This document shows, in pieces, positions 3,933 to 56,447 of a stretch of DNA of 64,000 nt (positions within the stretch are counted from its first letter, which is position 1; every line of letters starts with the position of its first letter). The stretch lies in sequence record NC_014467.1. One strand, given 5' to 3'. Under the pieces are notes generated by a model. It saw only the letters and a list, made by a program, of their open reading frames with translations, searched no databases and was not told the DNA's origin. Origin of the DNA: Escherichia phage RB16. The position numbers were made by a program, and so were the translations under genes.

Positions 3933-3959
3933 TTTATATCCTCCCCAATCAGTGAGGAC

Positions 3960-3988
3960 ACTATAACAAAAAGCCTCCCGCGATGCAA
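3960..3988 (-). promoter_or_regulatory. sigma70-like promoter embedded in stem-loop (PeSL-like): -35 TTGCAT, 17-bp spacer, -10 TATAGT
   Basis: Read on minus strand; the -35 lies inside hairpin AGCCTC...GAGGCT followed by TTTTTGT; upstream of the SprT-like gene. Confidence 0.45.
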
Positions 3989-4004
3989 GAGGCTTTTTGT
4001 AAAT

Positions 4005-5294
4005 TTATTTCAATTTCTTCGAAAGTTCTTTCAAATCATTGAGATATTCAGTTTTCGGGGTCGTTTCTTCCCAGTATTTCAGTTGCTTACGCAGTTCATT
4101 CGCTTCGTCTTCCAGCTTTTGACGTTCATCCGTGGTTAAATGGTAGATGTTCATCGCAACCAGGATTTCGGCGTGGTTCTCGCAACCCGCCCACGTAGAG
4201 ACAAGTTTAACCGCTTCGCTGCGACTAAGCCCCTTCAATGCGTCAGGCTGTGCGATCATCTGGTCGATGAAGTCAACCTTCGCCAGCGCTTTATCTAACG
4301 CTTCCTTAGTCTCCTGGATGCGTTTATCAATACGCTGTTGGTAAACACCAATACGGATATCAACGAAGTCTTTCAGCAACGTTTCAGGCCGCTCGTATGA
4401 ATGCAGTTTCCCGTTAAAGATAACGTTGATGTTCGGGTTTGAGTTCTCAATCAATCCGAAATCTTTCAGGATCTTCTCACGGGTAAGCCCGTTTGCGTAC
4501 TCACGTTTCAGGGTGATTTCGTAGCGGAAATCTTCTTTCGATAGATCCTTATAGCTTACGATATACCCTTTCTCTTCCAGCTTATCCAGAATAGAAATAT
4601 ATTTCACGCGATCATACTTGACCGGAATCTCTGTGATCACCAGTTTGGTTTTACCCTGGAGTTCGTACTTGCCGTACATCGTACCGTTTTCAATGTCACC
4701 TTTGAAATGCGGGTATTTCAGATCCAGCGTGAAATCTTTCCCGTTCAGGTAACTAACGCATCCATTCAGAACCGATACCGGATCATGTGGTGGAATGTTG
4801 GTAGCGTATGCTTTCGCGATCCCGCTGAACCCGTTAACCAATACCATCGGAATGATAGGCAGATAATAGGCAGGCGGTACGTGTTCAGGGTCTTCATGCG
4901 GAAGAGTTAAATCTTCGTCCATGTAGATAGCCTTGAACAGCGGAGACAGCTTACATTTGATGTAACGCGGTGCGCCTGGCTTCTTAACCAGACGGGAACC
5001 AAAGAACCCATCACGTTCGAAAAGCGGGATGTTGTTGCACCAGTGCGCCGCCATGAGAGACAACGCTTCTTCAACGGATGTTTCCCCGTGGTGATAACCA
5101 TACATAGCAACACCGCCAGCGATAGAGGCTACTTTCTGGAAGCCTGTACCGCCTTTTGCAGCGGAATGTATGAAGAAACGGTGAACGGGTTTGAACCCGT
5201 CTACCAGGTGCGGGATCGCACGAGAATAAATTGTGTAAAGGGCAAACGTAAGCCCTTCAACCTGCACAACGTCTTTAATACTTCGTTCCATCAA
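4005..5294 (-). CDS. 52: DNA topoisomerase II medium subunit (GyrA-like, gp52)
   Basis: 429 aa; GyrA N-terminal-like sequence; size matches T4 gp52 (442 aa); adjacent to gp39. Confidence 0.8.
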   Translation of the reverse strand: MMERSIKDVVQVEGLTFALYTIYSRAIPHLVDGFKPVHRFFIHSAAKGGTGFQKVASIAGGVAMYGYHHGETSVEEALSLMAAHWCNNIPLFERDGFFGSRLVKKPGAPRYIKCKLSPLFKAIYMDEDLTLPHEDPEHVPPAYYLPIIPMVLVNGFSGIAKAYATNIPPHDPVSVLNGCVSYLNGKDFTLDLKYPHFKGDIENGTMYGKYELQGKTKLVITEIPVKYDRVKYISILDKLEEKGYIVSYKDLSKEDFRYEITLKREYANGLTREKILKDFGLIENSNPNINVIFNGKLHSYERPETLLKDFVDIRIGVYQQRIDKRIQETKEALDKALAKVDFIDQMIAQPDALKGLSRSEAVKLVSTWAGCENHAEILVAMNIYHLTTDERQKLEDEANELRKQLKYWEETTPKTEYLNDLKELSKKLK

Positions 5295-24884: not shown

Positions 24885-24913
24885 AATTTAGTCCTCACAA
24901 TTGGTGTACAACC

Positions 24914-24942
24914 AATATAACAAAGCCCTTGCAGAAATGCAA
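24914..24942 (-). promoter_or_regulatory. PeSL-like promoter: -35 TTGCAT inside hairpin AGCCCTTGCA/TGCAAGGGCT, 17-bp spacer, -10 TATATT
   Basis: Same architecture as other copies; located after the regA stop. Confidence 0.5.
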
Positions 24943-24953
24943 GGGCTTTTTGA

Positions 24954-25322
24954 TTAATGTCCGATCCGGTACTTGTATTTCAAAGTCCATTCGGCTTTTT
25001 GTGCGTGGGTCAGTACGCGGAAGTTATTCTCTTCAGAGAATTTCAGATCCGGCGTAAGGATTTCGATCATTCCCCACTCTTCCAGAAGTCGCGCAATGTT
25101 GTTGCGGCGTAATTCGTCGTCTTCGGTCATGTCAACCTGGCGACCGTCCAGCCTCAAAAGTTCTTTGAAGTGTACGATAAAATAGCGCCCTTGCTTCTGT
25201 AAGATGTGGCAAGACTGCCACAGCATTTTCTTTTTATTGTTTGCGATCCCGATACGGGTTAGCGTTTCGCGAATTTTTAAAAAACTGTCGTCGCTGGACA
25301 GTTTGATTTCGAGCATGTTCAT
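24954..25322 (-). CDS. regA: translational repressor RegA
   Basis: 122 aa; close match to remembered T4 RegA (LTRIGIANNKKKMLWQSCHILQKQGRYFIVHFKELLRLDGRQV). Confidence 0.85.
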   Translation of the reverse strand: MNMLEIKLSSDDSFLKIRETLTRIGIANNKKKMLWQSCHILQKQGRYFIVHFKELLRLDGRQVDMTEDDELRRNNIARLLEEWGMIEILTPDLKFSEENNFRVLTHAQKAEWTLKYKYRIGH

Positions 25323-34311: not shown

Positions 34312-36005
34312 AATTAAATTTCCGTAAAATTAAGTATCAAAACATCTTATCAGTGGGTAATACCCCGATCGAACTTGAATTCGATACTGCAAAGAAAACC
34401 CTGATCACGGGTAAAAATGGTGGTGGTAAATCCACACTGATCGAAGCGTTGACGTATGCTCTTTTTGGTAAATCATTTCGTGATTTAAAAGTCGGGCAAC
34501 TGGTAAACAGTGTCAACAAAAAGAAATGTCTGGTTGAACTGGATATTGAATACGGGAAAGATTCGTACAAAGTCGTTCGCGGACAAAAGCCGAAAGTATT
34601 CGAGATCTGGAAAAACGGTGATAAGTTAGCAGAAGATTCAGCAGCGGGTGATTATCAATCTCAGCTTGAATCCATGCTCAATATTAACCTGGTTGGATTC
34701 AAACAGGTAATCGTGTTGGGTACTGCTGGCTATACTCCATTCATGGAACTGAAAACACCGGATCGCCGTAAACTGGTTGAAGACCTGTTGTCGCTATCGG
34801 TTATCAGTGAAATGGATAAGCTGAACAAATCATATGTCCGTGGTGTTAATCAGCAGTTGGATACCCTGTCAATGCAGGTTAACCACATCCAGCAGCAGAT
34901 CGCTACACACCAGCGCTTCATTGATGAACAGCGAGCTAAAGCGAACCAGAACAACGCACGATACAAAGAGATCTACGATAGCCACGTTGAAACCGCTAAG
35001 AACATCAAAGCACAGCTTATGCAGTTGCAAGCGGAGATCGCAGAAACGGTGATCACTGGTGCAGACCGAACGGAAGATATAAACAAACTCCGTGATGGCT
35101 ATACGCGCCTCTCTATGACTGTAGAACAGTTTAAAAAGCTGGAAGTGATGTATCAGAAAGGTGGTGAGTGTCCGGCCTGTAAACAGGCGATTAAGCCCAC
35201 TCCTGAACGCATGGAAGAGATCGCAAACAACATCAAAGCGGGTACGCAACGATTAACGCTGATCAAAACCAAACAGGACGAGTTGCAAGGCATTATGAAC
35301 GAGTTGCTTCAACAGCAACGCGCACTGAATGCTATGAAAACGAAATACGAAGCCCTGAAAGGTACGCTGCAAAATGAAGTTGCCAACGCTAAACGCGCAC
35401 AAGCGATCATGGAACAGGCAAGCGCGGAAGTTGTTATTGATGAAGAACCTGTTAAGCAGTTACAACAACAGGAAGCAGATCTGAACGATAAACGTCAAGG
35501 ATATGTGAAAGAAAAATATATCCGTGGTATCGTTACAGATATGTTAAAAGATTCTGGTGTAAAAGCCAGCATCGTAAAACGTTATATCCCGTACTTCAAC
35601 AAGCAGATCGCATACTATCTGGATCTGTTGGGCGCTGACTACCAGTTCACTTTAGATGATGAATTCAACGAATCAATCAAATCACTGGGGCGCGATGATT
35701 TTAGTTACGCATCATTTAGCCAGGGTGAACGCGCACGAATCAACCTTGCGTTGCTTATGACCTGGCGTGATGTAACAAGTAAAGTTTCTGGTGTTGATTT
35801 ATCGCTTCTGGTACTAGATGAAATCTTTGATGGTGCAATGGATAAAGAAGGTGGATTTGCAGTCAGAGCATTACTGGATGATATTGAAGGTAATGTTATT
35901 GTAATCAGTCATCAGGATTTAGATCCACAAGAATTTCATCGACATATTGTTATGTCTAAAGTAGGGAGATTCACCAAATGCAAGATAGTAAACAATGATT
36001 ACTAA
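34308..36005 (+). CDS. 46: recombination endonuclease subunit (gp46, Rad50/SbcC-like ATPase)
   Basis: 565 aa; Walker A GKNGGGKST; coiled coil with zinc hook CPACK; Walker B/D-loop LLVLDE. Confidence 0.85.
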   Translation: MKLNFRKIKYQNILSVGNTPIELEFDTAKKTLITGKNGGGKSTLIEALTYALFGKSFRDLKVGQLVNSVNKKKCLVELDIEYGKDSYKVVRGQKPKVFEIWKNGDKLAEDSAAGDYQSQLESMLNINLVGFKQVIVLGTAGYTPFMELKTPDRRKLVEDLLSLSVISEMDKLNKSYVRGVNQQLDTLSMQVNHIQQQIATHQRFIDEQRAKANQNNARYKEIYDSHVETAKNIKAQLMQLQAEIAETVITGADRTEDINKLRDGYTRLSMTVEQFKKLEVMYQKGGECPACKQAIKPTPERMEEIANNIKAGTQRLTLIKTKQDELQGIMNELLQQQRALNAMKTKYEALKGTLQNEVANAKRAQAIMEQASAEVVIDEEPVKQLQQQEADLNDKRQGYVKEKYIRGIVTDMLKDSGVKASIVKRYIPYFNKQIAYYLDLLGADYQFTLDDEFNESIKSLGRDDFSYASFSQGERARINLALLMTWRDVTSKVSGVDLSLLVLDEIFDGAMDKEGGFAVRALLDDIEGNVIVISHQDLDPQEFHRHIVMSKVGRFTKCKIVNNDY

Positions 36006-36570
36006 AAACTGGGACGACGAATTTCAAGCCGAGATTCGTCGTCGGTTTTACCATGTAAACGGGGTTTTGTATCACAAGACGGAGAGTAAACAAACTGCTT
36101 TTTCTCCGGCGGGATACTATTTCAAACCTGGTGATATGGTGAAATGTCACAAAACTAGGAAAAAGACTCCATATTTACAGATTTGTATGCGATATGAAGG
36201 GAAGTCTAACTATCTATACGTACATAGGGTTGTGTGGTTTCTTGAATATGGGTATCAGGTTGATACGATCGACCATATCGATCTAAATCCTTTAAATAAT
36301 GATCCATCGAATCTTAGAGAAGCAAGCACACAGCAGAACCATTACAACAAAAATGGAAAACCTAACACTTCCTCCACTTACAAGGGTGTATCATGGGATA
36401 AATCAACTTGCAAATGGAAAGTGGGTATTCAGCATAATAAGAAAAAGATTCATTTAGGATATTTTGATGATGAAGTCGAAGCGGCTAAGGCATACGATGC
36501 AAAGGCAATTGAAATTGGTGGACAATATGCGAGGTTAAACTTCCATGATTATGTTAGAACGAGAATTTGA
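35995..36570 (+). CDS. HNH-AP2 homing endonuclease (Mob-like)
   Basis: 191 aa; HRVVW...IDHIDLNPLNNDPSNLR HNH_3 motif and AP2-like KGVSWDKSTCKWKVGI...LGYFDDEVEAAKAY. Confidence 0.7.
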   Translation: MITKNWDDEFQAEIRRRFYHVNGVLYHKTESKQTAFSPAGYYFKPGDMVKCHKTRKKTPYLQICMRYEGKSNYLYVHRVVWFLEYGYQVDTIDHIDLNPLNNDPSNLREASTQQNHYNKNGKPNTSSTYKGVSWDKSTCKWKVGIQHNKKKIHLGYFDDEVEAAKAYDAKAIEIGGQYARLNFHDYVRTRI

Positions 36571-36813: not shown

Positions 36814-38511
36814 ATGATTAACGAAAAAATGACACACCGCGAAGCGTTGGAAATCTTAGGGGCCACGGGTACTGAATCCAAAGCTGAAATGTCCAAACTC
36901 TTCAAACGTGCTTCTCTGCGTAATCACCCCGATCGTGGTGGTAGCACAGAACTCATGCAAAAAATTAACCAGGCATATGACGTAGTAACGAGAACAAACA
37001 GTTCTGGTGAAACTATGATGGATATGCGAGCGCGTCACGCAGCGAATAAAAAAGCGTGGGAAGAAAAACTGGATGCGTATTTTGTTGTTGCTAAGAACTA
37101 TTTCAGCACGAAATTTAACGCACAGGAATTCGCTGAATACTTCACCAAATACACCGGACAGCCGACGACCTTCACACAGGTAGTCAAGAAAGATACAATT
37201 TCCGTATCTGCTGTGTTCCGTTTCACTTCTGGTGATGCTCACTTTGATTTCGCTTTCTACTGCAAGCCAGAAGAAGGTAAAGGTTTGATGTCTCCTGATG
37301 CAAGCGCATTGGGTAGTGTTTCTGTCAATACTCTGGTACTGGTTGGAACCAAAAAACATAAAATGGCAAGCCGTGAATATCAATGGGGCAAAAACCCAGA
37401 TAAGATCACACCGGAAAGCCTGTTCCCGTCCAAGAAACTTGCATCAATTTTCAGCCCGACACAAAAGAACCTCAAGTTCAAACGTGCTGACTATATGACT
37501 TCTTTCCGCAAGCACTTAGACGCAGAAATCAGCGGCAATGATATCTATGTTCCTGTAGGCGACCTGAAAGTTCGTTTCTATCGTCATGTAATGATGCGTA
37601 AAGGTGCGTATGTGTTTAGTGCGGTATACGACCCAGCGGTAAGTAAATTCCGTTCTGCTGCAAACCTTCGCGGTACTATGTTTGAAGACGAAGACGGCGC
37701 ATGTTTGGATATGATTATCGACACTTTCAAAGAAATGCAGAAAGCAAAACCGAACGTTAACGGTATTGTCAGTATCATTGACAAGATGAACGCAGAATTC
37801 GCAGCGGGACACCGTTCAGCATCTTTCGTCAAACGTATGGCACAGCAAGCAGCAGCACCGAAGCCGGAAGAAAAGCCGAAACGCACTGTTAACCGTATCA
37901 GCAAAGATGATTATTTCAACGCATTGAAACAAGCGGGTGCAACATTCCGTAGCAACTACGGTGAGTTTGATAACGGCGCTGGATTGACGTTCCACTTCAA
38001 ACGCGAGATCAGCAACCGTAAAGGCTTCTGGAGTTTCAGCAGTTTTAATTTCATGCACTCCGGTCAAAGTCATGTTGAATGGTTGAAAGATATCGACATT
38101 GACGAAGACAGCAAAGGTGCAAGTATCGGTCTGATGGTTGATACTCTGAAACAGTTGCGTGGTGTTGCTGATTGGTATACTGCAAGAAAGATCCTGGAAG
38201 CGATGCGCGATAACTTCAAAGCTGGTAAGTTCTCCGCACCACACGTTAAGAAAGAAGCCGAACAGAAACGCACTGAGGCGCAAGCTAAGGACGAGTTAGG
38301 CGCACAGCCTACCAAACCCCAGGGAGCGAAGAAAGAAGCCCCAGCAGTTGATAAGGCTCACGAGGCACAGATGGATCGTGAGAAGTCACAGATGAATGCA
38401 ACCATTCGTTCTATGCTCTCTGCCCTGGTTAAAGCCGGACGCAAAGACACGCCGGAAGAAATTAAAAAAGCAGTCGATGAAGCAATCGCTCTTTGGCGCT
38501 TGAAACACTAA
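36814..38511 (+). CDS. J-domain (DnaJ-like) protein, about 566 aa
   Basis: Start placed at MINEKMTHREALEILG (RBS GAGGAA); canonical J-domain with HPD motif (LRNHPDRGGSTELMQKINQAYDVV); the remaining ~490 aa have no recognised domain. Confidence 0.6.
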   Translation: MINEKMTHREALEILGATGTESKAEMSKLFKRASLRNHPDRGGSTELMQKINQAYDVVTRTNSSGETMMDMRARHAANKKAWEEKLDAYFVVAKNYFSTKFNAQEFAEYFTKYTGQPTTFTQVVKKDTISVSAVFRFTSGDAHFDFAFYCKPEEGKGLMSPDASALGSVSVNTLVLVGTKKHKMASREYQWGKNPDKITPESLFPSKKLASIFSPTQKNLKFKRADYMTSFRKHLDAEISGNDIYVPVGDLKVRFYRHVMMRKGAYVFSAVYDPAVSKFRSAANLRGTMFEDEDGACLDMIIDTFKEMQKAKPNVNGIVSIIDKMNAEFAAGHRSASFVKRMAQQAAAPKPEEKPKRTVNRISKDDYFNALKQAGATFRSNYGEFDNGAGLTFHFKREISNRKGFWSFSSFNFMHSGQSHVEWLKDIDIDEDSKGASIGLMVDTLKQLRGVADWYTARKILEAMRDNFKAGKFSAPHVKKEAEQKRTEAQAKDELGAQPTKPQGAKKEAPAVDKAHEAQMDREKSQMNATIRSMLSALVKAGRKDTPEEIKKAVDEAIALWRLKH

Positions 38512-38527
38512 CTGGTTATGCTATAAT
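38500..38527 (+). promoter_or_regulatory. sigma70-like promoter with extended -10: TTGAAA, 16-bp spacer, TGcTATAAT, overlapping the terminator hairpin 38528-38557
   Basis: Near-consensus hexamers; hairpin GGGAACTG...CAGTTCCC + TTTTTT directly downstream. Confidence 0.5.
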
Positions 38528-38568
38528 GGGAACTGTTGAAAAGCAGTTCCCTTTTTTATGAGGTGAGT

Positions 38569-38796
38569 ATGATTATTCAGGTATCGGTTCAGGGCAATAC
38601 CCTGACAGTAACAAATTCCATTATGACCGCTATGGCTGCATGTCGTGATCATGTCATGTCAAACCCTCCGGTAACGGAAATTCTGGAAATTGATGTATGG
38701 GAAGATGGTGTGATCGAAGAATCCTTTGGTTTCACTCCGTTAGAGGAAGATTTACGCAAAATGGAACAATGGCTATGGCAAACTGTACCCCAATGA
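38569..38796 (+). CDS. hypothetical protein
   Basis: Start placed at MIIQVSVQ (RBS GAGGTGAG). Confidence 0.4.
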   Translation: MIIQVSVQGNTLTVTNSIMTAMAACRDHVMSNPPVTEILEIDVWEDGVIEESFGFTPLEEDLRKMEQWLWQTVPQ

Positions 38797-40524: not shown

Positions 40525-42777
40525 ATGAGTGATATTAAAACAGTAGTAAAATCTTCTGGCGTAAGTCAGACATTTGAAAAAGAAAAACTGTTCAAAGTCC
40601 TTAATTGGGCGAGTGCTGGAAAGAATATTGATGTTAACGCATTCCTTGAAAATGTTGTTGACCTGCTTCGTGATGGTATGACTACCAAACAGATCCAGGC
40701 TGTAGCAATCAAGTATGCAGCGGATCGAATCTCCGTTAAAGAACCTGACTGGCAGTATGTAGCGGCTAACCTCGAAATGTTCGCCCTTCGTAAAACCGTT
40801 TACGGGCAGTTTGACCCGATCCCGTTCTACGAACACATCACTAAGCTGGTTGAGGCAGGAAAATACGATAAAGAAATCCTGACCAAATGGACTAAATCCG
40901 ATATCGAATATTTCGAAGAGAATATTAATCACGATAAAGATTTTGAATTCTCTTATGCTGGCGTTCAACAGTTGATCGGGAAATATCTGTTGCAGGATCG
41001 CACCAACGGCGATATCTACGAAACACCACAGTATGCATTCATGCTGATTGCGATGTGTTTACACCAGGATGAACCGCGCACCCTGTCGGCGTTTAATCAT
41101 GTGGTTGACTTCTATAACGCAATTTCGGATCGTAAACTGTCATTACCTACGCCTATTATGGCGGGTGTGCGTACTCCTACGCGTCAGTTCTCCAGTTGTG
41201 TTGTAATCGAATCTGGTGATTCTCTGGGTTCTCTGAACGCTGTTACGTCCGCGATCGTGAAATATATCTCTCAACGTGCGGGTATCGGTGTCAACGCCGG
41301 ACACATTCGCGCTATGGGTTCAAAAATCCGTGGTGGTGAAGCAGTCCATACAGGCGTTATCCCGTTCTGGAAACACATTCAGACGGCGGTTAAATCTTGT
41401 TCCCAGGGTGGCGTTCGTGGTGGTGCAGCAACCCTGTATTATCCGATCTGGCATCTTGAAGTTGAAAACCTGCTGGTTCTGAAAAATAACCGTGGCGTTG
41501 AAGAAAACCGTATTCGTCACCTGGACTATGGCGTACAGCTTAACGATTTGATGTATAAGCGTTTAATCAATAACGATTACATCACTCTGTTCAGCCCTGA
41601 CGTTGCGAATGATCGCCTCTATGACGCGTTCTATCAAGCGGATCAGACTGAGTTTGAAGAACTCTATACCAGTCTGGAAAAAGACCCAGCGGTACGCAAG
41701 AAACGTATTAAAGCGGTAGATCTGTTCCAGTTGCTTGTTCAGGAACGCGCACAGACCGGACGCAAATACATTTTCAACAGTCACCATGTAAACCAGCAGG
41801 GTAGTTTCTCTGTTCCGATTCGTATGTCGAACCTGTGCTGTGAAATCGCGATCCCAACTTCACCGCTGGATGATGATGATAAACTGGCTGGCGAAATTGG
41901 ACTGTGTACGCTTATGGCGATCGTTCTCGATAATGCCGATATAAGCGAATTCCCAGCCCTTACACGCATCGCAGTACGCGCACTGGATAACTTGCTGGAT
42001 TACCAGAACTACCCTGTTGCGGCGGCTCTGAAAGCCAAACAGCGTCGTTCTCTGGGTGTGGGTATCACCAACTATGCATCATGGCTGGCAAGCAACTATT
42101 GCGACTACTCCGAAGCATACGCCGGAAACGTTCATGAGTTGATGGAAGCGTTTCAATTTAACCTGCTGGTTGCCTCTATGGAACTCGCACAGGAACGCGG
42201 TGCATGTGGACTGTTCCACGAAACGAAATATGCACAAGGGCTGTTGCCTATTGACTGGTACTGCAAAAACGTTGATGAACTGGCATCACCTGTGTATAAC
42301 TGCGACTGGGAATGGTTACGCGGTGAAATCAAAAAACATGGCTTGCGTAACTCAACACTTTCTGCTTTAATGCCTTGTGAAAGTAGCTCACAGGTGAGTA
42401 ACTCAACCAACGGGATCGAACCTCCACGCGGCCCTGTGAGTGTGAAATCTTCTAAGGAAGGTTCATTCAATCAGGTAGTACCGAACCAGAATAATCAGAT
42501 TGACTTCTATGATTATCTCTGGACAATGGCAAAACGCGGAAATAAAGGTTATCTGGCTCACGTAGCGGTTATGCAGAAGTTTGTTGATCAGGCTATCTCT
42601 GCAAACACCAACTATGATCCGGCTAACTTCCCAGATGGTAAAGTGAAATCTGAAATCATCCTTGAAGATCTGCTGTATGCAAACTATTTCGGCATCAAAA
42701 CGCTGTACTACCACAACACCCGCGACGGTGCAGGTGAGGAAGAAGCGGAAGATTCATGTGAGGGATGCAAAATTTAA
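40525..42777 (+). CDS. nrdA: ribonucleoside-diphosphate reductase large subunit (class Ia)
   Basis: 750 aa; N-terminal ATP-cone; catalytic region NLCCEI; C-terminal Cys pair CEGCK. Confidence 0.9.
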   Translation: MSDIKTVVKSSGVSQTFEKEKLFKVLNWASAGKNIDVNAFLENVVDLLRDGMTTKQIQAVAIKYAADRISVKEPDWQYVAANLEMFALRKTVYGQFDPIPFYEHITKLVEAGKYDKEILTKWTKSDIEYFEENINHDKDFEFSYAGVQQLIGKYLLQDRTNGDIYETPQYAFMLIAMCLHQDEPRTLSAFNHVVDFYNAISDRKLSLPTPIMAGVRTPTRQFSSCVVIESGDSLGSLNAVTSAIVKYISQRAGIGVNAGHIRAMGSKIRGGEAVHTGVIPFWKHIQTAVKSCSQGGVRGGAATLYYPIWHLEVENLLVLKNNRGVEENRIRHLDYGVQLNDLMYKRLINNDYITLFSPDVANDRLYDAFYQADQTEFEELYTSLEKDPAVRKKRIKAVDLFQLLVQERAQTGRKYIFNSHHVNQQGSFSVPIRMSNLCCEIAIPTSPLDDDDKLAGEIGLCTLMAIVLDNADISEFPALTRIAVRALDNLLDYQNYPVAAALKAKQRRSLGVGITNYASWLASNYCDYSEAYAGNVHELMEAFQFNLLVASMELAQERGACGLFHETKYAQGLLPIDWYCKNVDELASPVYNCDWEWLRGEIKKHGLRNSTLSALMPCESSSQVSNSTNGIEPPRGPVSVKSSKEGSFNQVVPNQNNQIDFYDYLWTMAKRGNKGYLAHVAVMQKFVDQAISANTNYDPANFPDGKVKSEIILEDLLYANYFGIKTLYYHNTRDGAGEEEAEDSCEGCKI

Positions 42778-42806
42778 CGGAGAAGCCCCGAAAGGGGCTT
42801 TTTGAT

Positions 42807-43295
42807 ATGATAACACAATCGCGATTGAAAGAATTATTGACGTATGACAAAGAAACTGGTATTTTTCACTGGAAAGTAAAACTGAATAACAACCATGACA
42901 TAACAAAACCTGCTGGCGTTGTGTATGATGGATATGTTAGGATACAGGTAGACGGTAAAAAATATCGAGCGCACCGATTAGCGTGGTTGTATGTATATGG
43001 CTATATGCCAGAACTTATCGACCACAAAAACGGAATAACTACCGATAATTGGATAGATAATTTGCGGATTGCTTCATGCACTCAAAATCAATACAACAGC
43101 AAGATTCGAAAAGATAACACGTCTGGAATCAAAGGCGTTTCTTTTCATAAAAGAACTGGAAAATGGCAAGCAAAATGCCGTGTTGATGGAATAGTTCATT
43201 ATTTGGGATTATTCCACACAACAACCGAAGCCGAATCCGCTGTAATTGCGTTTCGACATAAACACCATCAAGAATATAGTAACGACGGGAAATAA
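42807..43295 (+). CDS. mobE: HNH-AP2 homing endonuclease between nrdA and nrdB (MobE position)
   Basis: HNH_3 motif HRLAW...IDHKNGITTDNWIDNLR and AP2-like GVSFHKRTGKWQAKC; T4 also carries mobE between nrdA and nrdB. Confidence 0.7.
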   Translation: MITQSRLKELLTYDKETGIFHWKVKLNNNHDITKPAGVVYDGYVRIQVDGKKYRAHRLAWLYVYGYMPELIDHKNGITTDNWIDNLRIASCTQNQYNSKIRKDNTSGIKGVSFHKRTGKWQAKCRVDGIVHYLGLFHTTTEAESAVIAFRHKHHQEYSNDGK

Positions 43296-44481: not shown

Positions 44482-45039
44482 ATGATTGATGCGATTCCCG
44501 TTTATACGGGAGTCCATCACAATCTATACGCATACCTGGCGGGTTGTGTTGATTGTGATGGATGGATTAGTGAAAAAGGAAAGAATGGTTATCTGGTTGG
44601 GCTTACACAGCATATTCAACTATGGGATGATATGGTTAGCATTCAATCTGATTTGATTAACGATGGTGTTGATGCAAAATTATATGAAAGAACCAGTAGA
44701 ACAGGATTAGGTAATACGTTGATGTGCAACCTAATTATTCAAAAATCATCGGATCTCTTGATTCTGTTACCGAGAATCATTCCATACCTTCGATTTAAAA
44801 AGCAAAAAGCAGTTGACGCATATTTTAATTTGTGTAAACATTCAGATCTTAATGCAAGTTCATCCGATAATGATATGAAAGGAAGTAAACGAAAGTATTG
44901 GAAGCCGGAAGAAATATCCGAACTAATTCGTTTACATTCGGAGGGTTACAACAACCCAGCGATAGGGATTAAAATGAATCGTTCTACCGATTCAATAAGT
45001 CATAAGTTGCATCGGTTGGGTATCATGAGAAACGAATGA
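44482..45039 (+). CDS. LAGLIDADG-like endonuclease with C-terminal helix-turn-helix
   Basis: 185 aa; motif YLAGCVDCDGWIS fits LAGxxDxDG near the N-terminus; C-terminal sigma-region-4-like HTH. Confidence 0.5.
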   Translation: MIDAIPVYTGVHHNLYAYLAGCVDCDGWISEKGKNGYLVGLTQHIQLWDDMVSIQSDLINDGVDAKLYERTSRTGLGNTLMCNLIIQKSSDLLILLPRIIPYLRFKKQKAVDAYFNLCKHSDLNASSSDNDMKGSKRKYWKPEEISELIRLHSEGYNNPAIGIKMNRSTDSISHKLHRLGIMRNE

Positions 45040-53219: not shown

Positions 53220-53821
53220 AACCAGTTATTCTTACCGACATTGACGGGATCGCCGTAAAATGGCAGTCGGGGTTGCCGTTCTTTTTGTCTAAACACAACA
53301 TGCCGACCGATATCGCGCTGGATATGGTTACGGATGAAAAGTTCCGCGATATGACCGAAATCTTCGGGTGTGATCACCAACTGGCGAAAATTCTCATGGA
53401 AGAATACAACAACAGTTCGTTTATTCGCTATCTAAGCGCGTATGACGATGCGTTGATTGTGATCAACCGTCTGAAAGCAAAGTATGATTTCGTGGCTGTC
53501 ACGGCGCTGGGAACTACTCCTACGGCAAGCCTGAACCGTATTGCGAACCTGAACACGCTGTTCCCTTCTGCATTCAAAGAGGTTTGTGTTGTCGGTCACG
53601 GCGAAACGAAAGTACATCGTTACCTGGAAGCCAAAGCAAAATATGGCGATCGTTTAGTATGTTTCATTGATGACCTTGCAGTAAACTTGAATGAGTGTCA
53701 TAACGTCATCAGTCAGTTGCCGTTATTCCATATGTTGCGTGGCGAACGTAGTGAACCGAGTGTACCTCATACTAAAGTGAATAACTGGCATGAAATTGAA
53801 AAAGCAATTGAGAACTCTTGA
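53216..53821 (+). CDS. HAD-superfamily hydrolase, putative 5'(3')-deoxyribonucleotidase
   Basis: 201 aa; N-terminal DxDG motif (ILTDIDGI) and late DD motif (VCFIDDLAVN). Confidence 0.5.
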   Translation: MKPVILTDIDGIAVKWQSGLPFFLSKHNMPTDIALDMVTDEKFRDMTEIFGCDHQLAKILMEEYNNSSFIRYLSAYDDALIVINRLKAKYDFVAVTALGTTPTASLNRIANLNTLFPSAFKEVCVVGHGETKVHRYLEAKAKYGDRLVCFIDDLAVNLNECHNVISQLPLFHMLRGERSEPSVPHTKVNNWHEIEKAIENS

Positions 53822-54341
53822 TGAAGAAACGCAAGGTATAGAAAACCTACTACAATGTATTCGAGTAGAACCAGAAACCGGAAAATGTTTCTGGTTGGAA
53901 AAGAGAAGTAATAAAATTCCTGCTGGAAGTGAAGCAGGTTCTTTTCATAAATCAAGTGGATATACGCGAATAAAATTCGAAAATGCGATGTACATCCGGT
54001 CAAGGGTGATATTTTATTACGTTAATGGTTATCTTCCAGTGATGGTTGACCATGTTCACGGTGTTGAATGCGGTGATATGATTTCTAATCTAAGGGAGTC
54101 CAATCAGGTAACAAATCAACAAAACCGCACACGGAATAAAAATAATACCGTTGGGTTTAAGGGCGTGTCATTCAACAAGAAATCGCAAAAATATAGCGCC
54201 AAAATCACTTTACATGGAGTGACTAAGTGGTTAGGATTTTATGATTCTGCCGAGGAAGCAAGTGAAGCATATAAGGCCAAAGCACTCGTTTCCTTTACAC
54301 ATAATGAAAGGTACTTAAATGATCTTACAGATTCTGAATGA
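53790..54341 (+). CDS. HNH-AP2 homing endonuclease (Mob-like)
   Basis: 183 aa; YLPVMVDHVHGVECGDMISNL and GVSFNKKSQKYSAKI...WLGFYDSAEEASEAY; paralog of 33781..34311; inserted upstream of DNA ligase. Confidence 0.7.
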   Translation: MKLKKQLRTLDEETQGIENLLQCIRVEPETGKCFWLEKRSNKIPAGSEAGSFHKSSGYTRIKFENAMYIRSRVIFYYVNGYLPVMVDHVHGVECGDMISNLRESNQVTNQQNRTRNKNNTVGFKGVSFNKKSQKYSAKITLHGVTKWLGFYDSAEEASEAYKAKALVSFTHNERYLNDLTDSE

Positions 54342-55842
54342 ACTTGCTTCGACTCTGAAAACATCAGAGAAAGAAGCGATCCTTAAACGTAATGCAGGTA
54401 ATGACCTGCTGAAAGAGATTTTCCGCATTACGTACACGAAACAGATTATGTTTCACATCAAGAAGTTCCCGCAGGTTGACGGGAAGCCAGGCACAACACC
54501 GCTATCGAATGCTATCGCGGATTTAATGTCTGATCTGGCAACGCGGAAGTATACAGGCAATGCAGCCCGTGATCGTCTTCTGGATATCGTTTCATCGGTA
54601 AACGAAAACGACCGCGAAGTGTTACGCCGTATCATTAATCGCGATCTGGAATGTGGTGCTGGTACAACGTTACCGAACCGAGTATGGAAGAAACTCATTC
54701 CAGAACAGCCCCAGTGCCTCGCTACGCCGTTCAGTGAGAAAGCCTTAAAACGTATTCGCTTCCCTGCTTACTCTCAGCTTAAAGCCGATGGTGCGCGTTG
54801 TATGTCCGATCTGTTAGAAGACAAGATCCGCAAAGCATCCCGCGCGGGGAATGAGTATGAAGGTTTATTGAATCTGGACAAGGGTCTGAAAAAGATTCGT
54901 GAATATCTGGGTTATGATGTTGTACTTGATGGAGAACTGATTTATGTCCCTGCTGAAAAAACTGCTGTCGTTCCTTCAAACAGCGTTCCATTTAGTCTTG
55001 CTGGGTTTATGGGCGATGACGACGATTCTGTTTCTGACCTTGTGGCAGATGTTAGGCGGGAAGCTACCGAGAACGAGACACAAGCGGAAGCGAAACGCGA
55101 AGAGGGCAACGGGATTGTAAACAAATCCCTGAAAGGTACTATCAGCGACGAAGAACAGCGCAATATCGTTTATGTTGTCTGGGATATCGTACCGTATGAA
55201 GTATACTATGGTGATGCTCCGAGTGTTCAGCCATATTGCGATCGTTTCTCTATTCTGGAAGGTGCGCTGGCTGGCTCTGGTGTAACGTCAGTTAAGCTGA
55301 TCCCTTCTATCCTGGTGCAGAACTACGCGGAAGCGAAAAAGGATTACAACAATTACCGAAATGAAGGTAAAGAGGGTTCAATCCTGAAAAACGTTGATTT
55401 CAAATGGAAAGATTCACGCGTTGCGGATCAGGTGAAGTTGAAGAACAAAACCCCGATTGAACTGCGAATCATCGACGTGTACGAACACACCAAAGAAGCT
55501 CATAAGGTCGGAGGGTTCGTGGTTGAGGACTTATCAGGAGAAGCCAGAACAAACACAGGTTCCGGTCTGACTGATACGGACTACCGATACGATGAAGACG
55601 GTATTAACCGCGTGTACATCCCGTTAGAAGAACGTGGTGAACTGGATCGCGAATACATCATGGCGAACAAAGATGACTATATCGGCGCTATCGTCGAAAT
55701 GGAAGTTGACGGACTCCAGAAGTCTAAAACGCGTAAGAAGGGCGAACCTGAGTTCAGTTTCTTCTTGCCAATCATCAAGAAGATCCGACGCGATAAGACC
55801 GAACCGGATGATATTCACGTTATCTTCGCTGATCTGTTTTAA
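54319..55842 (+). CDS. 30: ATP-dependent DNA ligase (gp30)
   Basis: 507 aa; N-terminus MILQILNELAS parallels T4 ligase; adenylation motif KADGAR; motifs DGELIY and EG.ILK. Confidence 0.85.
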   Translation: MILQILNELASTLKTSEKEAILKRNAGNDLLKEIFRITYTKQIMFHIKKFPQVDGKPGTTPLSNAIADLMSDLATRKYTGNAARDRLLDIVSSVNENDREVLRRIINRDLECGAGTTLPNRVWKKLIPEQPQCLATPFSEKALKRIRFPAYSQLKADGARCMSDLLEDKIRKASRAGNEYEGLLNLDKGLKKIREYLGYDVVLDGELIYVPAEKTAVVPSNSVPFSLAGFMGDDDDSVSDLVADVRREATENETQAEAKREEGNGIVNKSLKGTISDEEQRNIVYVVWDIVPYEVYYGDAPSVQPYCDRFSILEGALAGSGVTSVKLIPSILVQNYAEAKKDYNNYRNEGKEGSILKNVDFKWKDSRVADQVKLKNKTPIELRIIDVYEHTKEAHKVGGFVVEDLSGEARTNTGSGLTDTDYRYDEDGINRVYIPLEERGELDREYIMANKDDYIGAIVEMEVDGLQKSKTRKKGEPEFSFFLPIIKKIRRDKTEPDDIHVIFADLF

Positions 55843-55860
55843 ATAGCACTTTTTGCTAAA

Positions 55861-55896
55861 AAGCCCCTTGCATGAGTAAGGGGCTTTTGTTATATT
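55861..55896 (+). promoter_or_regulatory. PeSL-like cassette: terminator hairpin AAGCCCCTT...AAGGGGCTT containing -35 TTGCAT, TTTTGT, -10 TATATT
   Basis: Part of 55841-55935, near-identical to 10641-10737 (reverse complement), including 5'UTR ACATCGAAACGAAACAGACAAAAGGAAC. Confidence 0.55.
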
Positions 55897-55933
55897 ACAA
55901 ACATCGAAACGAAACAGACAAAAGGAACATCCC

Positions 55934-56206
55934 ATGCAAATCACTAAAGAACTCGAAGGCAAAGTAATCGTTCTGGTAAATGAAGACCGTTTGGCACAAC
56001 TGGGTAACGGTGGTGAAAAACTGCCAGCGGACGCACTCGAAAGCCTTTCTAAAATGCGCGTGATGCGTGTTACTGACGGTTGGGTTACTTGTCTGCCTCT
56101 GAACGACGAAGACAAAGCCGTATACGATGCACAAGCGGATTCATGGGATATCGAAGTACCTCTGGTAAACATCGAAGTTGAAGAGTGCTACGAAATCGAA
56201 AAATAA
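55934..56206 (+). CDS. hypothetical protein
   Basis: 90 aa; RBS AAGGAAC; first gene downstream of PeSL cassette. Confidence 0.45.
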   Translation: MQITKELEGKVIVLVNEDRLAQLGNGGEKLPADALESLSKMRVMRVTDGWVTCLPLNDEDKAVYDAQADSWDIEVPLVNIEVEECYEIEK

Positions 56207-56208
56207 TG

Positions 56209-56238
56209 CTTGCTTCCTGGGTAATGTAGTGGTACATT
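56209..56238 (+). promoter_or_regulatory. sigma70-like promoter: -35 TTGCTT (aATGCTTGCtt), 18-bp spacer, -10 TACATT, within 10-bp perfect hairpin GGGTAATGTA...TACATTACCC
   Basis: Followed by 5'UTR ATATCGAAACGAAAGGAG shared with the PeSL copies. Confidence 0.4.
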
Positions 56239-56267
56239 ACCCATATCGAAACGAAAGGAGAAACATC

Positions 56268-56447
56268 ATGAAAATTATGCACACTGCAAATCAACTTCAA
56301 AACGGCAACTACGCTATCCACGATGCTATCGGTGCGCTGGTTGGGGTTTATCTTCATGGTATCAAACTCCTTGAAGTAAGTGGGAATACCTTTTATGGTG
56401 TTGAAAACATCGAAGCAGCGATGGAAATTATCGGTGACCTGAAATGA
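56268..56447 (+). CDS. hypothetical small protein
   Basis: 59 aa from MKIMHTANQ; RBS AAGGAG. Confidence 0.4.
   Translation: MKIMHTANQLQNGNYAIHDAIGALVGVYLHGIKLLEVSGNTFYGVENIEAAMEIIGDLK

What the first reader, a model, noticed from the sequence alone, without database searches (positions are those of the whole stretch)
55841..55935. Near-identical ~95-bp promoter/stem-loop cassette present on both strands (PeSL-like mobile regulatory module)
55841-55935 (plus) and 10641-10737 (minus) share almost the same string: TAGCACTTTTTGCTAAA, a GC-rich hairpin carrying a TTGCA -35, TTTTGTTATATTACA (-10 TATATT), then the 5'UTR CATCGAAACGAAACAGACAAAAGGAAC and ATG. Partial copies occur at 9934-9995, 10214-10290 and 56205-56267. 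The two full copies precede unrelated small ORFs in different genome regions, which is what is described for PeSL cassettes that shuffle genes in T4-type phages.
Basis: partly seen in the sequence, partly recalled or inferred. Interest (0 to 1): 0.7.

Follow-up and report, generated by a model that had tools for sequence, protein, structure and literature searches.

The report
Repeated promoter-terminator cassette in phage
Two nearly identical ~95-base stretches between genes of an RB43-type T4-like phage are real copies of a portable "stop the upstream gene, restart the next one" control cassette of the known PeSL kind, and the same cassette unexpectedly also occurs in unrelated T1-like phages.

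Summary
Window 55842-55928(+) and 10736-10649(-) align over 88 bp at 90.9% identity (E=2.7e-22).

Each full copy has, in order:
- the upstream gene's stop codon inside a dyad, TAGCA-N5-TGCTA;
- a GC-rich terminator hairpin that contains a TTGCA -35;
- a TGn-TATATT extended -10;
- an invariant A/C-rich leader, CATCGAAACGAAACAGACAAAAGGAAC;
- a Shine-Dalgarno sequence and ATG.

The downstream ORFs are unrelated and of unknown function.

Relatives show the cassettes acting as recombination joints:
- RB43 carries denV between two cassettes, and the window's copy B is the fused empty-site form.
- IME-CF2 has an extra ORF bracketed by two cassettes after DNA ligase.
- Lw1 has an ORF indel and a gene replacement that abut copies C and E.
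- Identical hairpin alleles sit at different loci in different phages.

Every sequence-level PeSL criterion is met. Promoter activity, termination and mini-circles were not tested.

Unexpectedly, the same motif (TAGCAC-N5-GYTAAA, fixed spacer, -10, CATCGAAAC) is the commonest recognisable upstream motif in T1-like siphoviruses, including T1 itself. Its leader also occurs in a Certrevirus. No flanking gene sampled is shared, and no copy lies in a host chromosome.

Verdict: a new member of a known kind, with a noteworthy cross-family distribution.

The parts
55840..55936 (+). Cassette A, full copy: from the stop codon of DNA ligase gp30 to the ATG of a 90-aa ORF of unknown function (55934-56206).
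   Evidence: It is 100% identical in Pseudotevenvirus phages such as GAP161 and Banach and is always placed right after the ligase gene.
55844..55858 (+). Dyad TAGCA-CTTTT-TGCTA within the 17-mer TAGCACTTTTTGCTAAA. It holds stop codons (TAA 55840, TAG 55844, TAA 55857, which together close all three frames). Its T-tract and A-tract fall at about -53..-41, where a UP element would lie.
   Evidence: 3 exact copies, 0.25 expected. (folds as a small 5-bp hairpin); the arms are conserved in 141 T1-like instances while the spacer is TTTTT (55%) or GAATT (33%).
55859..55888 (+). Intrinsic-terminator-type hairpin AAAAGCCCCTTGC-ATGA-GTAAGGGGCTTTT (13 pairs), followed by a T-rich tail.
   Evidence: terminator scan, 13 pairs, 6 GC. 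(-24.8 kcal/mol, z=-5.5, 0 of 200 shuffles as stable). The RB43 orthologue was called a terminator by TransTerm at 57704-57725, '30-->ORF096w' (PMC1524935 supplement).
55868..55873 (+). Predicted -35 hexamer TTGCAT, embedded in the 5' arm and loop of the hairpin.
   Evidence: It lies 17 bp from the -10. CTTGC is invariant in 13 related hairpins.
55888..55896 (+). Extended -10, TGT-TATATT.
55902..55933 (+). Conserved leader CATCGAAACGAAACAGACAAAAGGAAC, with predicted +1 at A55903 and SD AAGGAA at 55922-55927.
   Evidence: The 27-mer is exact in a Certrevirus, and its first 24 nt are exact in Webervirus AYM.
10641..10737 (-). Cassette B, full copy: stop TAA 10737-10735, 17-mer 10734-10718, hairpin 10718-10689, -35 TTGCAA 10709-10704, TGT-TATATT with -10 at 10686-10681, ATCGAAAC from 10674, ATG 10643-10641 of a 53-aa ORF.
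   Evidence: It corresponds to the fusion of the two cassettes that flank denV in RB43.
10211..10290 (-). Cassette C: 17-mer 10287-10271 (its TAG is the stop of the upstream ORF), hairpin GGGGTAGCT/AGTTACCCC 10262-10238 spanning the -10 TATAGT (10249-10244), ATCGAAAC from 10237, GTG 10213. It has the short spacing class, 21 nt between GCTAAA and the -10. No -35 is recognisable.
   Evidence: -18.9 kcal/mol, z=-3.4. 59 of 72 identical to a T1-like instance (L031), and close to phage T1 1451-1540. The Lw1 gp015 indel abuts it.
9931..10003 (-). Cassette D, promoter and leader only: -35 TTGCAA 9994-9989, -10 TATATT 9971-9966, ATCGAAAC from 9959, ATG 9933. No hairpin and no 17-mer.
   Evidence: z=+0.6. 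Its -35 to +1 segment is B-like in the window, C-like in Lw1 and a third allele in RB43.
56204..56270 (+). Cassette E: stop TAA 56204, -35 TTGCTT 56210-56215, hairpin 56218-56243 spanning the TGG-TACATT -10 (56233-56238), ATCGAAAC from 56245, ATG 56268.
   Evidence: -15.6 kcal/mol, z=-3.2. In Lw1 the gene content changes directly after its ATG.
3950..4005 (-). Site with the same design (terminator hairpin containing TTGCAT, then TGT-TATAGT) but without the 17-mer or the ATCGAAAC leader. It lies between gp52 and a small ORF.
   Evidence: -26.4 kcal/mol, z=-7.4. RB43 equivalents are Pe:4005 and terminator 3977-3995.
11415..11460 (-). Site with the same design: AAAACCCTTGCA-TTCG-TGCAAGGGTTTT, then GT-TATTTT. 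The scan calls it a bidirectional terminator.
   Evidence: -20 kcal/mol, z=-6.6.
24905..24960 (-). Site with the same design between regA and the small ORF upstream of DNA polymerase gp43: AAAGCCCTTGCA-TTTC-TGCAAGGGCTTT, then GT-TATATT.
   Evidence: -21.7 kcal/mol, z=-4.7. PeSL-like sequences near g43 of RB43 were mentioned in PMC2839356.

Best explanation
The element is a composite boundary between transcription units, of the PeSL type, in an RB43/RB16-type T4-like phage (Pseudotevenvirus). Reading 5' to 3', the upstream ORF ends in a block rich in stop codons (TAA.TAGCACTTTTTGCTAAA). A GC-rich hairpin plus T-run then terminates or attenuates read-through. Host sigma-70 RNA polymerase re-initiates from a promoter whose -35 (TTGCA) lies inside the hairpin and whose -10 is of the extended type (TGnTATATT). 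The T- and A-tracts of the upstream 17-mer sit where a UP element would. The transcript starts at about A of ATCGAAAC and carries an unstructured A/C-rich leader with AAGGAA, so whatever ORF lies downstream is translated. Because 25-90 bp of the cassette are identical between copies, the phage's own homologous recombination can cross over between cassettes. That deletes, inserts or swaps the ORFs lying between them and homogenises parts of the cassettes themselves. Shown by sequence: the repeat, the anatomy, the stability and conservation of the hairpins, and the recombination footprints in relatives. Inferred: promoter activity, its early timing, the transcription start site, termination efficiency, and that the cassettes cause the rearrangements rather than merely mark them.
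For: Repeat significance.

Promoter geometry (17-bp spacer, TGn).

Hairpins: A -24.8 kcal/mol (z -5.5), B -18.5 (z -2.7), C -18.9 (z -3.4), E -15.6 (z -3.2). All 13 related sites keep a stem. The basal pairs show compensatory changes (G-C to A-T, C-G to T-A), and the partners of the invariant CTTGC change on one side only.

Prior predictions in RB43: the orthologous hairpin of A was called a terminator, and the neighbouring sites were predicted as overlapping early promoter plus terminator (PMC1524935 supplements).

Recombination footprints:
(a) RB43 has denV between two cassettes, with the direct repeat GTATATTAC(G/A)CACAT at both ends. The window's B equals the left half plus the right half.
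(b) IME-CF2 has an extra 255-bp ORF after ligase, bracketed by two cassettes that share ACACACATCGAAACGAAACAGA and then, with one base missing in the second copy, AAAGGAAC.
(c) The 168-bp Lw1 gp015 indel ends 3 nt from TAGCAC of C.
(d) The Lw1/window gene difference begins at the ATG of E.
(e) D carries B-type, C-type or a third -10/+1 segment in three phages that are otherwise 90-97% identical.
(f) The hairpin allele GCCTCTTGCAATGCAGGGGGC sits at locus B in Lw1 and RB43 but at locus A in KP15.

The cassettes lie in runs of small ORFs of unknown function.

PeSL promoter, terminator and mini-circle functions were shown experimentally for RB49/phi1 (PMC2839356).
Against: There are no transcript data for this phage group at these sites. 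The -35 matches TTGACA at only 4 of 6 positions. Copy A (8 of 12 hexamer matches) falls below the 9-of-12 threshold of the promoter scan. The RB43 orthologue of A is not among the 43 early promoters predicted in 2006. Copy A is positionally conserved in every relative, so it is not moving. Indels that leave viable phage must fall between genes anyway, so abutting a cassette is weak evidence that the cassette caused the event. Only BP1 and BP13 of the 13 window/Lw1 differences touch family cassettes, 3 more touch other hairpin/promoter sites, and 4 are HNH+AP2 endonuclease-like ORFs. The 99-100% identity patch around A (54.9-57.5 kb vs Banach) is not bounded by cassettes. C and most T1-like copies have no recognisable -35, and only 30% of the T1-like copies have TGn. 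Plain sigma-70 recognition may therefore not be the whole story.
Confidence: 0.75

Rival explanations
1. It is an ordinary promoter plus terminator kept similar by purifying selection alone. On this view the copies are not substrates or products of recombination, and the near-identity reflects functional constraint at every position.
For: Copy A sits at the same locus in all relatives and is 87-100% conserved. The promoter hexamers, the stem and the SD are the best-conserved parts. Most indels against Lw1 lie at plain gene junctions or are homing-endonuclease-like ORFs.
Against: A and B share 27 of 27 leader bases and the 17-mer, whereas other predicted early promoters in the same window (for example 31353+, 48082+, 18603-, 31143-) have neither. 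The denV and IME-CF2 arrangements have cassette sequence as direct repeats at both junctions. The same hairpin allele occurs at different loci in different phages, and D swaps segments between B-type and C-type. Selection alone predicts none of these.
Confidence: 0.15
2. It is a T4-type middle (MotA/AsiA-dependent) promoter. The homologous sites are labelled this way in the Klebsiella phage KP27 record.
For: KP27 (HQ918180) annotates the homologous sites as 'putative middle promoter; discovered using MEME'. TTTGCTAAA in the 17-mer and aaTGCTTGC in D and E resemble the Mot box TTTGCTTTA.
Against: No motA orthologue and no middle-promoter consensus were found in RB43 (PMC1524935; PMC3486835). 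The Mot box must lie 11-13 bp from the -10, but GCTAAA lies 20-31 bp away. In D and E a TTGC-type hexamer sits at exactly 17 bp, the sigma-70 spacing. The KP27 label came from motif discovery only (PMC5219037). T1-like phages carry the same motif.
Confidence: 0.04
3. The conserved dyad TAGCA-N5-TGCTA is an operator or activator site for a dedicated DNA-binding protein (phage or host) placed at a fixed distance from the -10. The cassette would then be a regulated promoter class rather than a constitutive early one. The conserved leader could likewise be the target of an RNA-binding regulator.
For: The arms are conserved and spacer length is fixed while spacer sequence varies (TTTTT or GAATT) in 141 instances. 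The distance to the -10 falls into two classes, 20-21 nt and 30-31 nt, one helical turn apart. Most short-class copies lack both a -35 and TGn, so some upstream contact seems needed. GC positions inside the motif are conserved, which a pure A/T-tract UP element does not explain.
Against: tblastx found no shared protein between a T1-like genome and the window, although the window is only about a third of the T4-like genome. The composite motif is absent from enterobacterial chromosomes, so it is not a known host regulon site. The motif doubles as stop codons and as A/T tracts, which could by itself explain some of the conservation.
Confidence: 0.2
4. It is a non-coding RNA gene or a cis-regulatory RNA (a small RNA ending at the terminator, or a riboswitch-like leader), and not primarily a promoter.
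For: It has a stable hairpin with a U-tail, a strongly conserved 27-nt leader, and two weak Rfam hits.
Against: The Rfam hits are far below gathering score: 21.9 vs 80.4 bits and 21 vs 55 bits, with E=0.05 and 0.8. The leader is predicted to be unstructured. No promoter is positioned to make a discrete small RNA ending at the hairpin. The hairpin loop is the most variable part.
Confidence: 0.03

Closest known systems
PeSLs (promoter-early stem-loops) of T4-type phages RB49/phi1, PST/T4 and nt-1/KVP40 (Arbiol et al. 2010, PMC2839356; Comeau et al. 2014, PMC4122927)
   Same: It is a composite of upstream stop codon, AT-rich stretch, sigma-70-like -35 and -10, a stem-loop that can overlap the -35 or the -10, SD and start codon. 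It is repeated on both strands, lies in variable regions ahead of small ORFs of unknown function, and is found at indel and replacement junctions between close relatives. Degraded 'half' copies exist (D here).
   Different: The sequence family is different. The -35 is TTGCA rather than TTGACA. There are two extra invariant modules: the 17-mer dyad and a 27-nt leader. Spacing is strict. The same family also occurs outside T4-type phages, in Drexlerviridae and a Certrevirus, which the PeSL papers do not report. In RB43 they mention only unspecified 'PeSL-like sequences' near g43. Promoter, terminator and mini-circle activities were measured for RB49/phi1 and not here.
RB43 early promoters and TransTerm terminators predicted by Nolan et al. 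2006 (PMC1524935)
   Same: The hairpin of the RB43 orthologue of A is their terminator 57704-57725. Sites homologous to the B region and to 3988 and 24942 appear as overlapping early promoter plus terminator pairs. They describe G at -33, G or C at -36 and an A-rich -40..-44, and this cassette has C at -36 and AAAAA at about -45..-41.
   Different: They listed promoters and terminators separately. They did not describe the repeated cassette, its leader or the dyad. The orthologue of A is not in their list of 43 early promoters.
Morons of lambdoid phages (independent promoter-gene-terminator units inserted between genes)
   Same: Small accessory genes carry their own transcription signals and are gained or lost as units between conserved genes.
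   Different: Morons are defined by the inserted gene unit. Here the conserved, repeated part is the non-coding linker, and different genes (denV and ORFs of unknown function) occupy the slots.
Upstream motif of T1-like siphoviruses (Drexlerviridae), as found here; no description was found in the searchable literature
   Same: The architecture is identical: AATAGCAC-N5-G(C/T)TAAA, 20 nt that usually form a hairpin, TATAGT or TATTAT, TACCCC, CATCGAAAC, SD, ATG. The window's copy C matches one instance at 59 of 72 positions and is close to phage T1 1451-1540. Copy A shares 75 of 93 positions and a 24-nt exact leader with Webervirus AYM.
   Different: In T1-like phages the spacer is 10 bp shorter, there is no TTGCA -35, and the hairpin usually lacks a T-run, so it is not a canonical terminator. 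There are up to 6 strict copies per 44-53 kb genome, against about 5 per 177 kb in the T4-like phage.

Membership tests
PeSL (promoter-early stem-loop) cassettes of T4-type phages | Sigma-70-like -35 and -10 boxes at about 17 bp spacing | tested here: met
   A: TTGCAT-17-TATATT with TGn. B: TTGCAA-17-TATATT with TGn. D: TTGCAA-17-TATATT. E: TTGCTT-17-TACATT with TGn. C has a -10 with TGn but no -35.
PeSL (promoter-early stem-loop) cassettes of T4-type phages | A stable stem-loop within or next to the promoter (five positional subclasses) | tested here: met
   A and B overlap the -35; C and E span the -10. Energies run from -15.6 to -24.8 kcal/mol and z from -2.7 to -5.5. D has none and counts as a 'half' copy.
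PeSL (promoter-early stem-loop) cassettes of T4-type phages | Begins with the stop codon of the upstream gene in an AT-rich stretch and ends with SD and the start codon of the downstream gene | tested here: met
   The stops are TAA 55840, TAA 10737, TAG 10287, TAA 10003 and TAA 56204. SD and ATG or GTG follow 22-31 nt after the predicted +1.
PeSL (promoter-early stem-loop) cassettes of T4-type phages | Repeated motif, preferentially in hyperplastic regions upstream of ORFs of unknown function | tested here: met
   There are five family copies in two clusters, 9.9-10.7 kb and 55.8-56.3 kb. All precede ORFs whose PHROG families have unknown function. Two more copies lie at about 92 kb of the source genome.
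PeSL (promoter-early stem-loop) cassettes of T4-type phages | Associated with insertion, deletion or replacement of ORFs between closely related phages, with crossovers inside the motif | tested here: met
   denV slot in RB43, extra ORF in IME-CF2, Lw1 gp015 indel at C, gene difference after E. The association is partial: 2 of 13 window/Lw1 differences touch family copies.
PeSL (promoter-early stem-loop) cassettes of T4-type phages | Demonstrated promoter strength, terminator activity and formation of mini-circles | not testable with these tools
   Needs reporter assays, 5'/3' end mapping and inverse PCR.
T4 MotA-dependent middle promoter | Mot box (a/t)(a/t)(a/t)TGCTT(t/c)A placed 11-13 bp upstream of the -10, and a motA gene in the phage | tested here: not met
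   TTTGCTAAA lies 20-31 bp from the -10. No motA or middle-promoter consensus exists in RB43 according to PMC1524935 and PMC3486835. motA was not searched for directly in the window.
Rho-independent (intrinsic) terminator | GC-rich stem-loop followed directly by a T-run | tested here: met
   A: 13-pair stem then TTTTGTT. B: stem then CTTTTGTTAT. C and E are not met, because ACCCCATCG or ACCCATATCG follows the stem with no T-run.
Sigma-54 promoter (TGGCAC-N5-TTGCW) | GG and GC elements exactly 10 bp apart | tested here: not met
   TAGCAC-N3-TTGCT has AG in place of GG and a spacing 2 bp too short. The conserved -10 and +1 lie far downstream of where a sigma-54 start would fall (read directly).
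Any Rfam RNA family | Score at or above the family's gathering threshold | tested here: not met
   The best hits are 21.9 bits (threshold 80.4) and 21 bits (threshold 55).
Host chromosomal regulatory site or prophage element | Presence of the cassette in bacterial chromosomes | tested here: not met
   There is no BLAST hit in 5,426 complete E. coli genomes. The composite motif occurs in only 7 stretches among 100,044 species genomes. Six look like T1-like phage contigs and one is a chance hit in coding sequence.

The most novel reading that the evidence does not exclude
The cassette belongs to one non-coding 'expression linker' family that has been exchanged horizontally among unrelated virulent phage families of enterobacteria, without the flanking genes. 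These are T1-like Drexlerviridae, where it is the common upstream motif; RB43-type Straboviridae; and, for the leader module, a Certrevirus. Such shared linkers would give otherwise non-homologous phages short homology tracts through which genes could move. The fixed-spacing dyad TAGCA-N5-TGCTA and the invariant +1 CATCGAAAC may also define an uncharacterised way of recruiting host RNA polymerase, or an unknown factor, to promoters that lack a -35.
Probability: 0.5. Interest if true: 0.65.

Novelty: new member of a known kind. Interest (0 to 1): 0.5.

Why it matters
For this phage group the result turns anonymous intergenic repeats into an explicit map. It shows where early transcription units probably begin and end. 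It also shows where accessory genes are swapped in and out, including denV, a UV-repair gene of known function.

It corrects a database label: 'middle promoter' in KP27-type records.

If the cross-family sharing reflects exchange, then short regulatory linkers, and not only genes, form a common currency between unrelated lytic phages that meet in the same hosts. That bears on how mosaic genomes arise. It also bears on the safety and stability of therapeutic phage cocktails that mix T1-like and T4-like Klebsiella or Enterobacter phages.

The cassette is also a compact, apparently host-portable part (stop, terminator, promoter, leader) for phage engineering.

Tried and rejected
1. MotA middle promoter (the KP27 annotation): rejected on spacing and on the reported absence of motA.

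2. Sigma-54 and sigma-32 look-alikes (TAGCAC..TTGCT; CCCCAT in some discriminators): spacing and position do not fit, and CCCCAT is not universal.

3. Known RNA family: nothing near threshold.

4. Host origin: no hit in E. coli genomes, and effectively none in 100,044 species genomes.

5. A shared regulator or shared flanking genes between T1-like and T4-like phages: tblastn and tblastx found none in the loci and window examined. blastn finds only the leader.

6. Whether the 99-100% identity patch around A (relative to Banach and EcL22g) is bounded by cassettes: it is not. It starts inside the ligase gene and fades gradually.

7. A formal column-wise covariation count on the hairpin: abandoned. 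Loop lengths differ, so the ungapped MAFFT alignment puts the 3' arms out of register. It was replaced by per-sequence folds anchored on CTTGC.

8. Literature search for the sequence strings and for T1-like promoter motifs: only unrelated primer coincidences and no relevant paper. The T1 and Rtp genome papers are not in the searchable library, so prior description there cannot be excluded.

9. The 12-mer CATCGAAACGAA on its own at 2 mismatches is not enriched.
Full report
**What the window is.** The first 25 kb match Escherichia phage Lw1 (Pseudotevenvirus, the RB43 group of T4-like phages) at 97.7% identity over 99% of the query. Positions 39-64 kb match other Pseudotevenvirus phages (GAP161, EcL22g, Banach) at about 91%, with a patch of 99-100% identity from about 54.9 to 57.5 kb. 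An IMG/VR genome of 176,788 bp carries both full cassettes with identical sequence and is presumably the source. From memory, that length is that of phage RB16. Genes run leftward up to about 31 kb and rightward after that. This is why the two copies lie on opposite strands.

**The observation.** It is correct.
- In a self-BLAST of the window, A (55842-55928, plus) against B (10736-10649, minus) is by far the strongest repeat: 88 bp, 90.9% identity, E=2.7e-22. The only other repeat is a 23-nt exact match between B and D.
- Half of the differences between A and B lie in the hairpin loop or at the stem edge beside it.
- The 17-mer TAGCACTTTTTGCTAAA occurs exactly three times, against 0.25 expected even when 3 mismatches are allowed.

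**Anatomy of copy A (coordinates).**
- Ligase stop codon: TAA 55840-55842.
- Dyad: TAGCA-CTTTT-TGCTA, 55844-55858.
- Hairpin: 55859-55888, 13 pairs, followed by TTTTGTT. The terminator scan finds it. It folds at -24.8 kcal/mol with z=-5.5.
- -35: TTGCAT 55868-55873, inside the hairpin.
- Spacer: 17 bp.
- Extended -10: TGT-TATATT, 55888-55896.
- Predicted +1: A55903.
- Leader: CATCGAAACGAAACAGACAAAAGGAAC.
- ATG: 55934.

B has the same layout. C keeps the 17-mer, but its hairpin (GGGGTAGCT/AGTTACCCC) spans the -10, it has no -35, and its spacer is 10 bp shorter. E has a hairpin across the spacer and the -10. D has no hairpin.

Three further sites in the window, near 3988, 11452 and 24942 on the minus strand, use the same design of a -35 inside a terminator followed by TGT-TATAnT. 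They lack the 17-mer and the leader.

Other predicted early promoters in the window are of the TTGACA type and lack all of these extras. The cassette is therefore a distinct sub-family, not simply the consensus early promoter.

**The downstream ORFs.** The ORFs downstream of A and B are unrelated. All ORFs adjacent to the cassettes fall in PHROG families of unknown function.

**Conservation of the hairpin.** Thirteen orthologous or paralogous sites all fold into a stem, at -12 to -23 kcal/mol. Anchoring on the invariant CTTGC of the -35 shows two patterns. The basal pairs show two-sided changes (G-C to A-T, C-G to T-A). The partners of the fixed -35 bases vary on one side only (T-A to T-G, G-C to G-T). 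The loop is the most variable part.

**Evidence that cassettes are recombination joints.**
1. In RB43, denV (486 bp) lies between the orthologues of the genes that flank B.
   - On its left is TAGCAC, a hairpin and GTATATTACGCACAT.
   - On its right is a second promoter ending GTATATTACACACATCGAAAC.
   - The window's B is exactly the left half joined to the right half.
2. In IME-CF2 and its relatives, an extra 255-bp ORF follows the ligase gene. Two cassettes bracket it. They share ACACACATCGAAACGAAACAGA and then, with one base missing in the second copy, AAAGGAAC.
3. The only indel between the window and Lw1 in the B-D cluster is a 168-bp ORF. Its end lies 3 nt from the TAGCAC of C.
4. After E, the window has two ORFs that Lw1 lacks. 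The difference starts at the ATG of E, on a short repeat ATGAAAA(T/A)TA.
5. D carries a B-type -10/+1 segment in the window, a C-type segment in Lw1 and a third type in RB43, although the flanks are 90-97% identical.
6. The hairpin allele GCCTCTTGCAATGCAGGGGGC occurs at locus B in Lw1 and RB43 and at locus A in KP15.

**Limits of that evidence.** Of the 13 structural differences between the window and Lw1:
- two abut family cassettes;
- three abut other promoter or terminator hairpins;
- four are HNH_3+AP2 endonuclease-like ORFs;
- the rest are junction-to-junction ORF indels with microhomology.

Viable indels must fall between genes in any case. The high-identity patch around A is not bounded by cassettes. 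A itself sits directly after the ligase gene in every Pseudotevenvirus relative checked.

**Comparison with what is known.** The PeSL papers define a composite made of the following parts:
- an upstream stop codon in an AT-rich stretch;
- a sigma-70-like promoter;
- a stem-loop in one of five positions relative to the promoter;
- an SD and a start codon.

PeSLs are concentrated in hyperplastic regions ahead of ORFans. They are found at indels between sister phages. Promoter, terminator and mini-circle activity were demonstrated for RB49/phi1. Every sequence-level criterion is met here, and the experimental ones cannot be tested with these tools.

For RB43 those authors mention only 'PeSL-like sequences' near g43. 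Nolan et al. (2006) had separately predicted the hairpin of the RB43 orthologue of A as a terminator. They had also predicted overlapping promoter and terminator pairs at sites homologous to the B region and to 3988 and 24942.

The KP27 record calls the homologous sites 'putative middle promoters' on the basis of MEME alone. That label conflicts with the reported absence of motA in RB43 and with the spacing.

**The unexpected part.** BLAST of the 93-bp cassette finds 333 phage records and 1,123 places.
- RB43-type myoviruses have 3-9 places per genome.
- There are single near-full-length matches in T1-like siphoviruses of 44-53 kb: Webervirus AYM, 75 of 93 positions; Veterinaerplatzvirus; F20; LF82-11.
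- The 27-nt leader is exact in the Certrevirus PcCB7V, behind that phage's own hairpin, which contains TTGACT.

Most are on contigs of 44-53 kb, with up to 6 copies per genome.

AYM has six copies with identical spacing, all ahead of genes in its non-structural regions. Phage T1 itself carries the motif.

Across 141 unique T1-like instances:
- the consensus is aAATAGCAC-tttTT-GcTAAAac, about 16 variable nt, GgTATa.T, tacccCATCGAAACgaAaca;
- the variable segment forms a hairpin in 73% of cases, against 7% of shuffles;
- TGn is present in only 30%;
- no -35 lies at a usable distance.

The window's C matches one T1-like instance at 59 of 72 positions and resembles T1 1451-1540.

Flanking genes are not homologous across families. 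tblastx finds nothing shared between AYM and the window, and blastn finds only the leader. The cassette is absent from 5,426 E. coli genomes. It is effectively absent from 100,044 species genomes apart from mis-binned T1-like contigs.

Fifteen leader bases beyond the family core are identical between AYM and the window. Across roughly 700 instance-by-copy comparisons this is very unlikely by chance (my estimate, about 1e-6). This favours common descent or exchange over convergence for at least that module. For C, part of the similarity is forced by the pairing of GGGGTA with the conserved TACCCC.

**Mechanism and confidence.** The best-supported reading (0.75) is a PeSL-type unit that terminates upstream transcription, restarts it, and supplies a leader. 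Its long identical tracts let the phage's recombination system swap the genes between copies.

What recognises the dyad is open. UP-element-like A/T tracts explain part of it. The conserved GC positions, the two spacing classes one helical turn apart, and the lack of a -35 in the short class leave room for a dedicated factor (0.2).

**Verdict.** As a PeSL it is a new member of a known kind. Its cross-family distribution is the part worth following up.

Noticed in passing
window 33781-34311, 35995-36570, 42765-43295, 53790-54341 (all +): Four ORFs of 176-191 aa with HNH_3 plus AP2 domains, resembling homing endonucleases. They sit between gp47 and gp46, after gp46, between nrdA and nrdB, and just upstream of DNA ligase. 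All four are absent from Lw1 or replaced there (Lw1 has mobE at the second site). The nrdA/nrdB one follows a hairpin-plus-TGATATGAT site whose +1 region, AACACAATCG, resembles the cassette.
   Followed up: partly
window 44482-45039 (+): A 185-aa ORF with a LAGCVDCDG motif (LAGLIDADG-like by eye) and a weak HTH_38 match. It replaces different sequence in Lw1 between nrdB and denA.
   Followed up: partly
window 1-64000 versus relatives: Strong mosaicism. Positions 1-25 kb are 97.7% identical to Lw1. Positions 39-64 kb are only 74-95% identical to Lw1 piecewise but about 91% to Pseudotevenvirus phages such as GAP161, with a 99-100% patch at about 54.9-57.5 kb and 60-80% stretches at 59.1-59.8 and 60.1-60.7 kb (baseplate genes).
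   Followed up: partly
L002 (KP27 HQ918180 8868-10533): The public record labels the homologous cassettes 'putative middle promoter; discovered using MEME', overlapping 'putative terminator'. The label is probably wrong for a phage group reported to lack motA.
   Followed up: yes
L145-L148 (NZ_VSMK01000220.1, 46,669-bp contig in a Nitratidesulfovibrio liaohensis assembly); L142, L144 (short MAG contigs assigned to Bacillota and Dysgonomonas): These contigs carry one to five strict copies of the T1-like cassette. They look like T1-like enterobacterial phage DNA that was co-assembled or mis-binned into unrelated genomes.
   Followed up: partly
L026 (AYM) 40746-40606, minus strand; L008 (vB_EcoS-12469I) 1501-1760: In T1-like phages two cassettes lie in tandem 110-190 nt apart, with only a 16-25-codon ORF between them. 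This could be an emptied gene slot or a leader peptide.
   Followed up: no
L116 (source genome, about 91.5-93.4 kb, outside the window): There are two further family copies in the same genome. One is of the long class (…AAACCCCTTGCCTATGGTGAGTGGTTTTGTTATATTACACACATCGAAACGAAACAGACAAAAAGG). One is of the short class with a GAATT spacer (TTAGCACGAATTGCTAAAAC…TGTTATTGTACACACATCGAAACGAAGGAGG).
   Followed up: partly
window 38480-38570 (+): TTGAAA-N16-TGC-TATAAT is followed by the hairpin GGGAACTG…CAGTTCCC and a T-run, then SD and ATG. This has PeSL-like layout with the stem-loop downstream of the -10. Lw1 has an extra 330-bp ORF inserted exactly between this SD and the next ATG.
   Followed up: partly
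window 62758-62777 vs AYM 35095-35114: A 20-nt exact match between the window and the T1-like phage lies outside the cassette family (E=0.003). The AYM copy is a terminator-like AAAAAGGGGC…GCCCCTTTTT context. This is probably chance.
   Followed up: no
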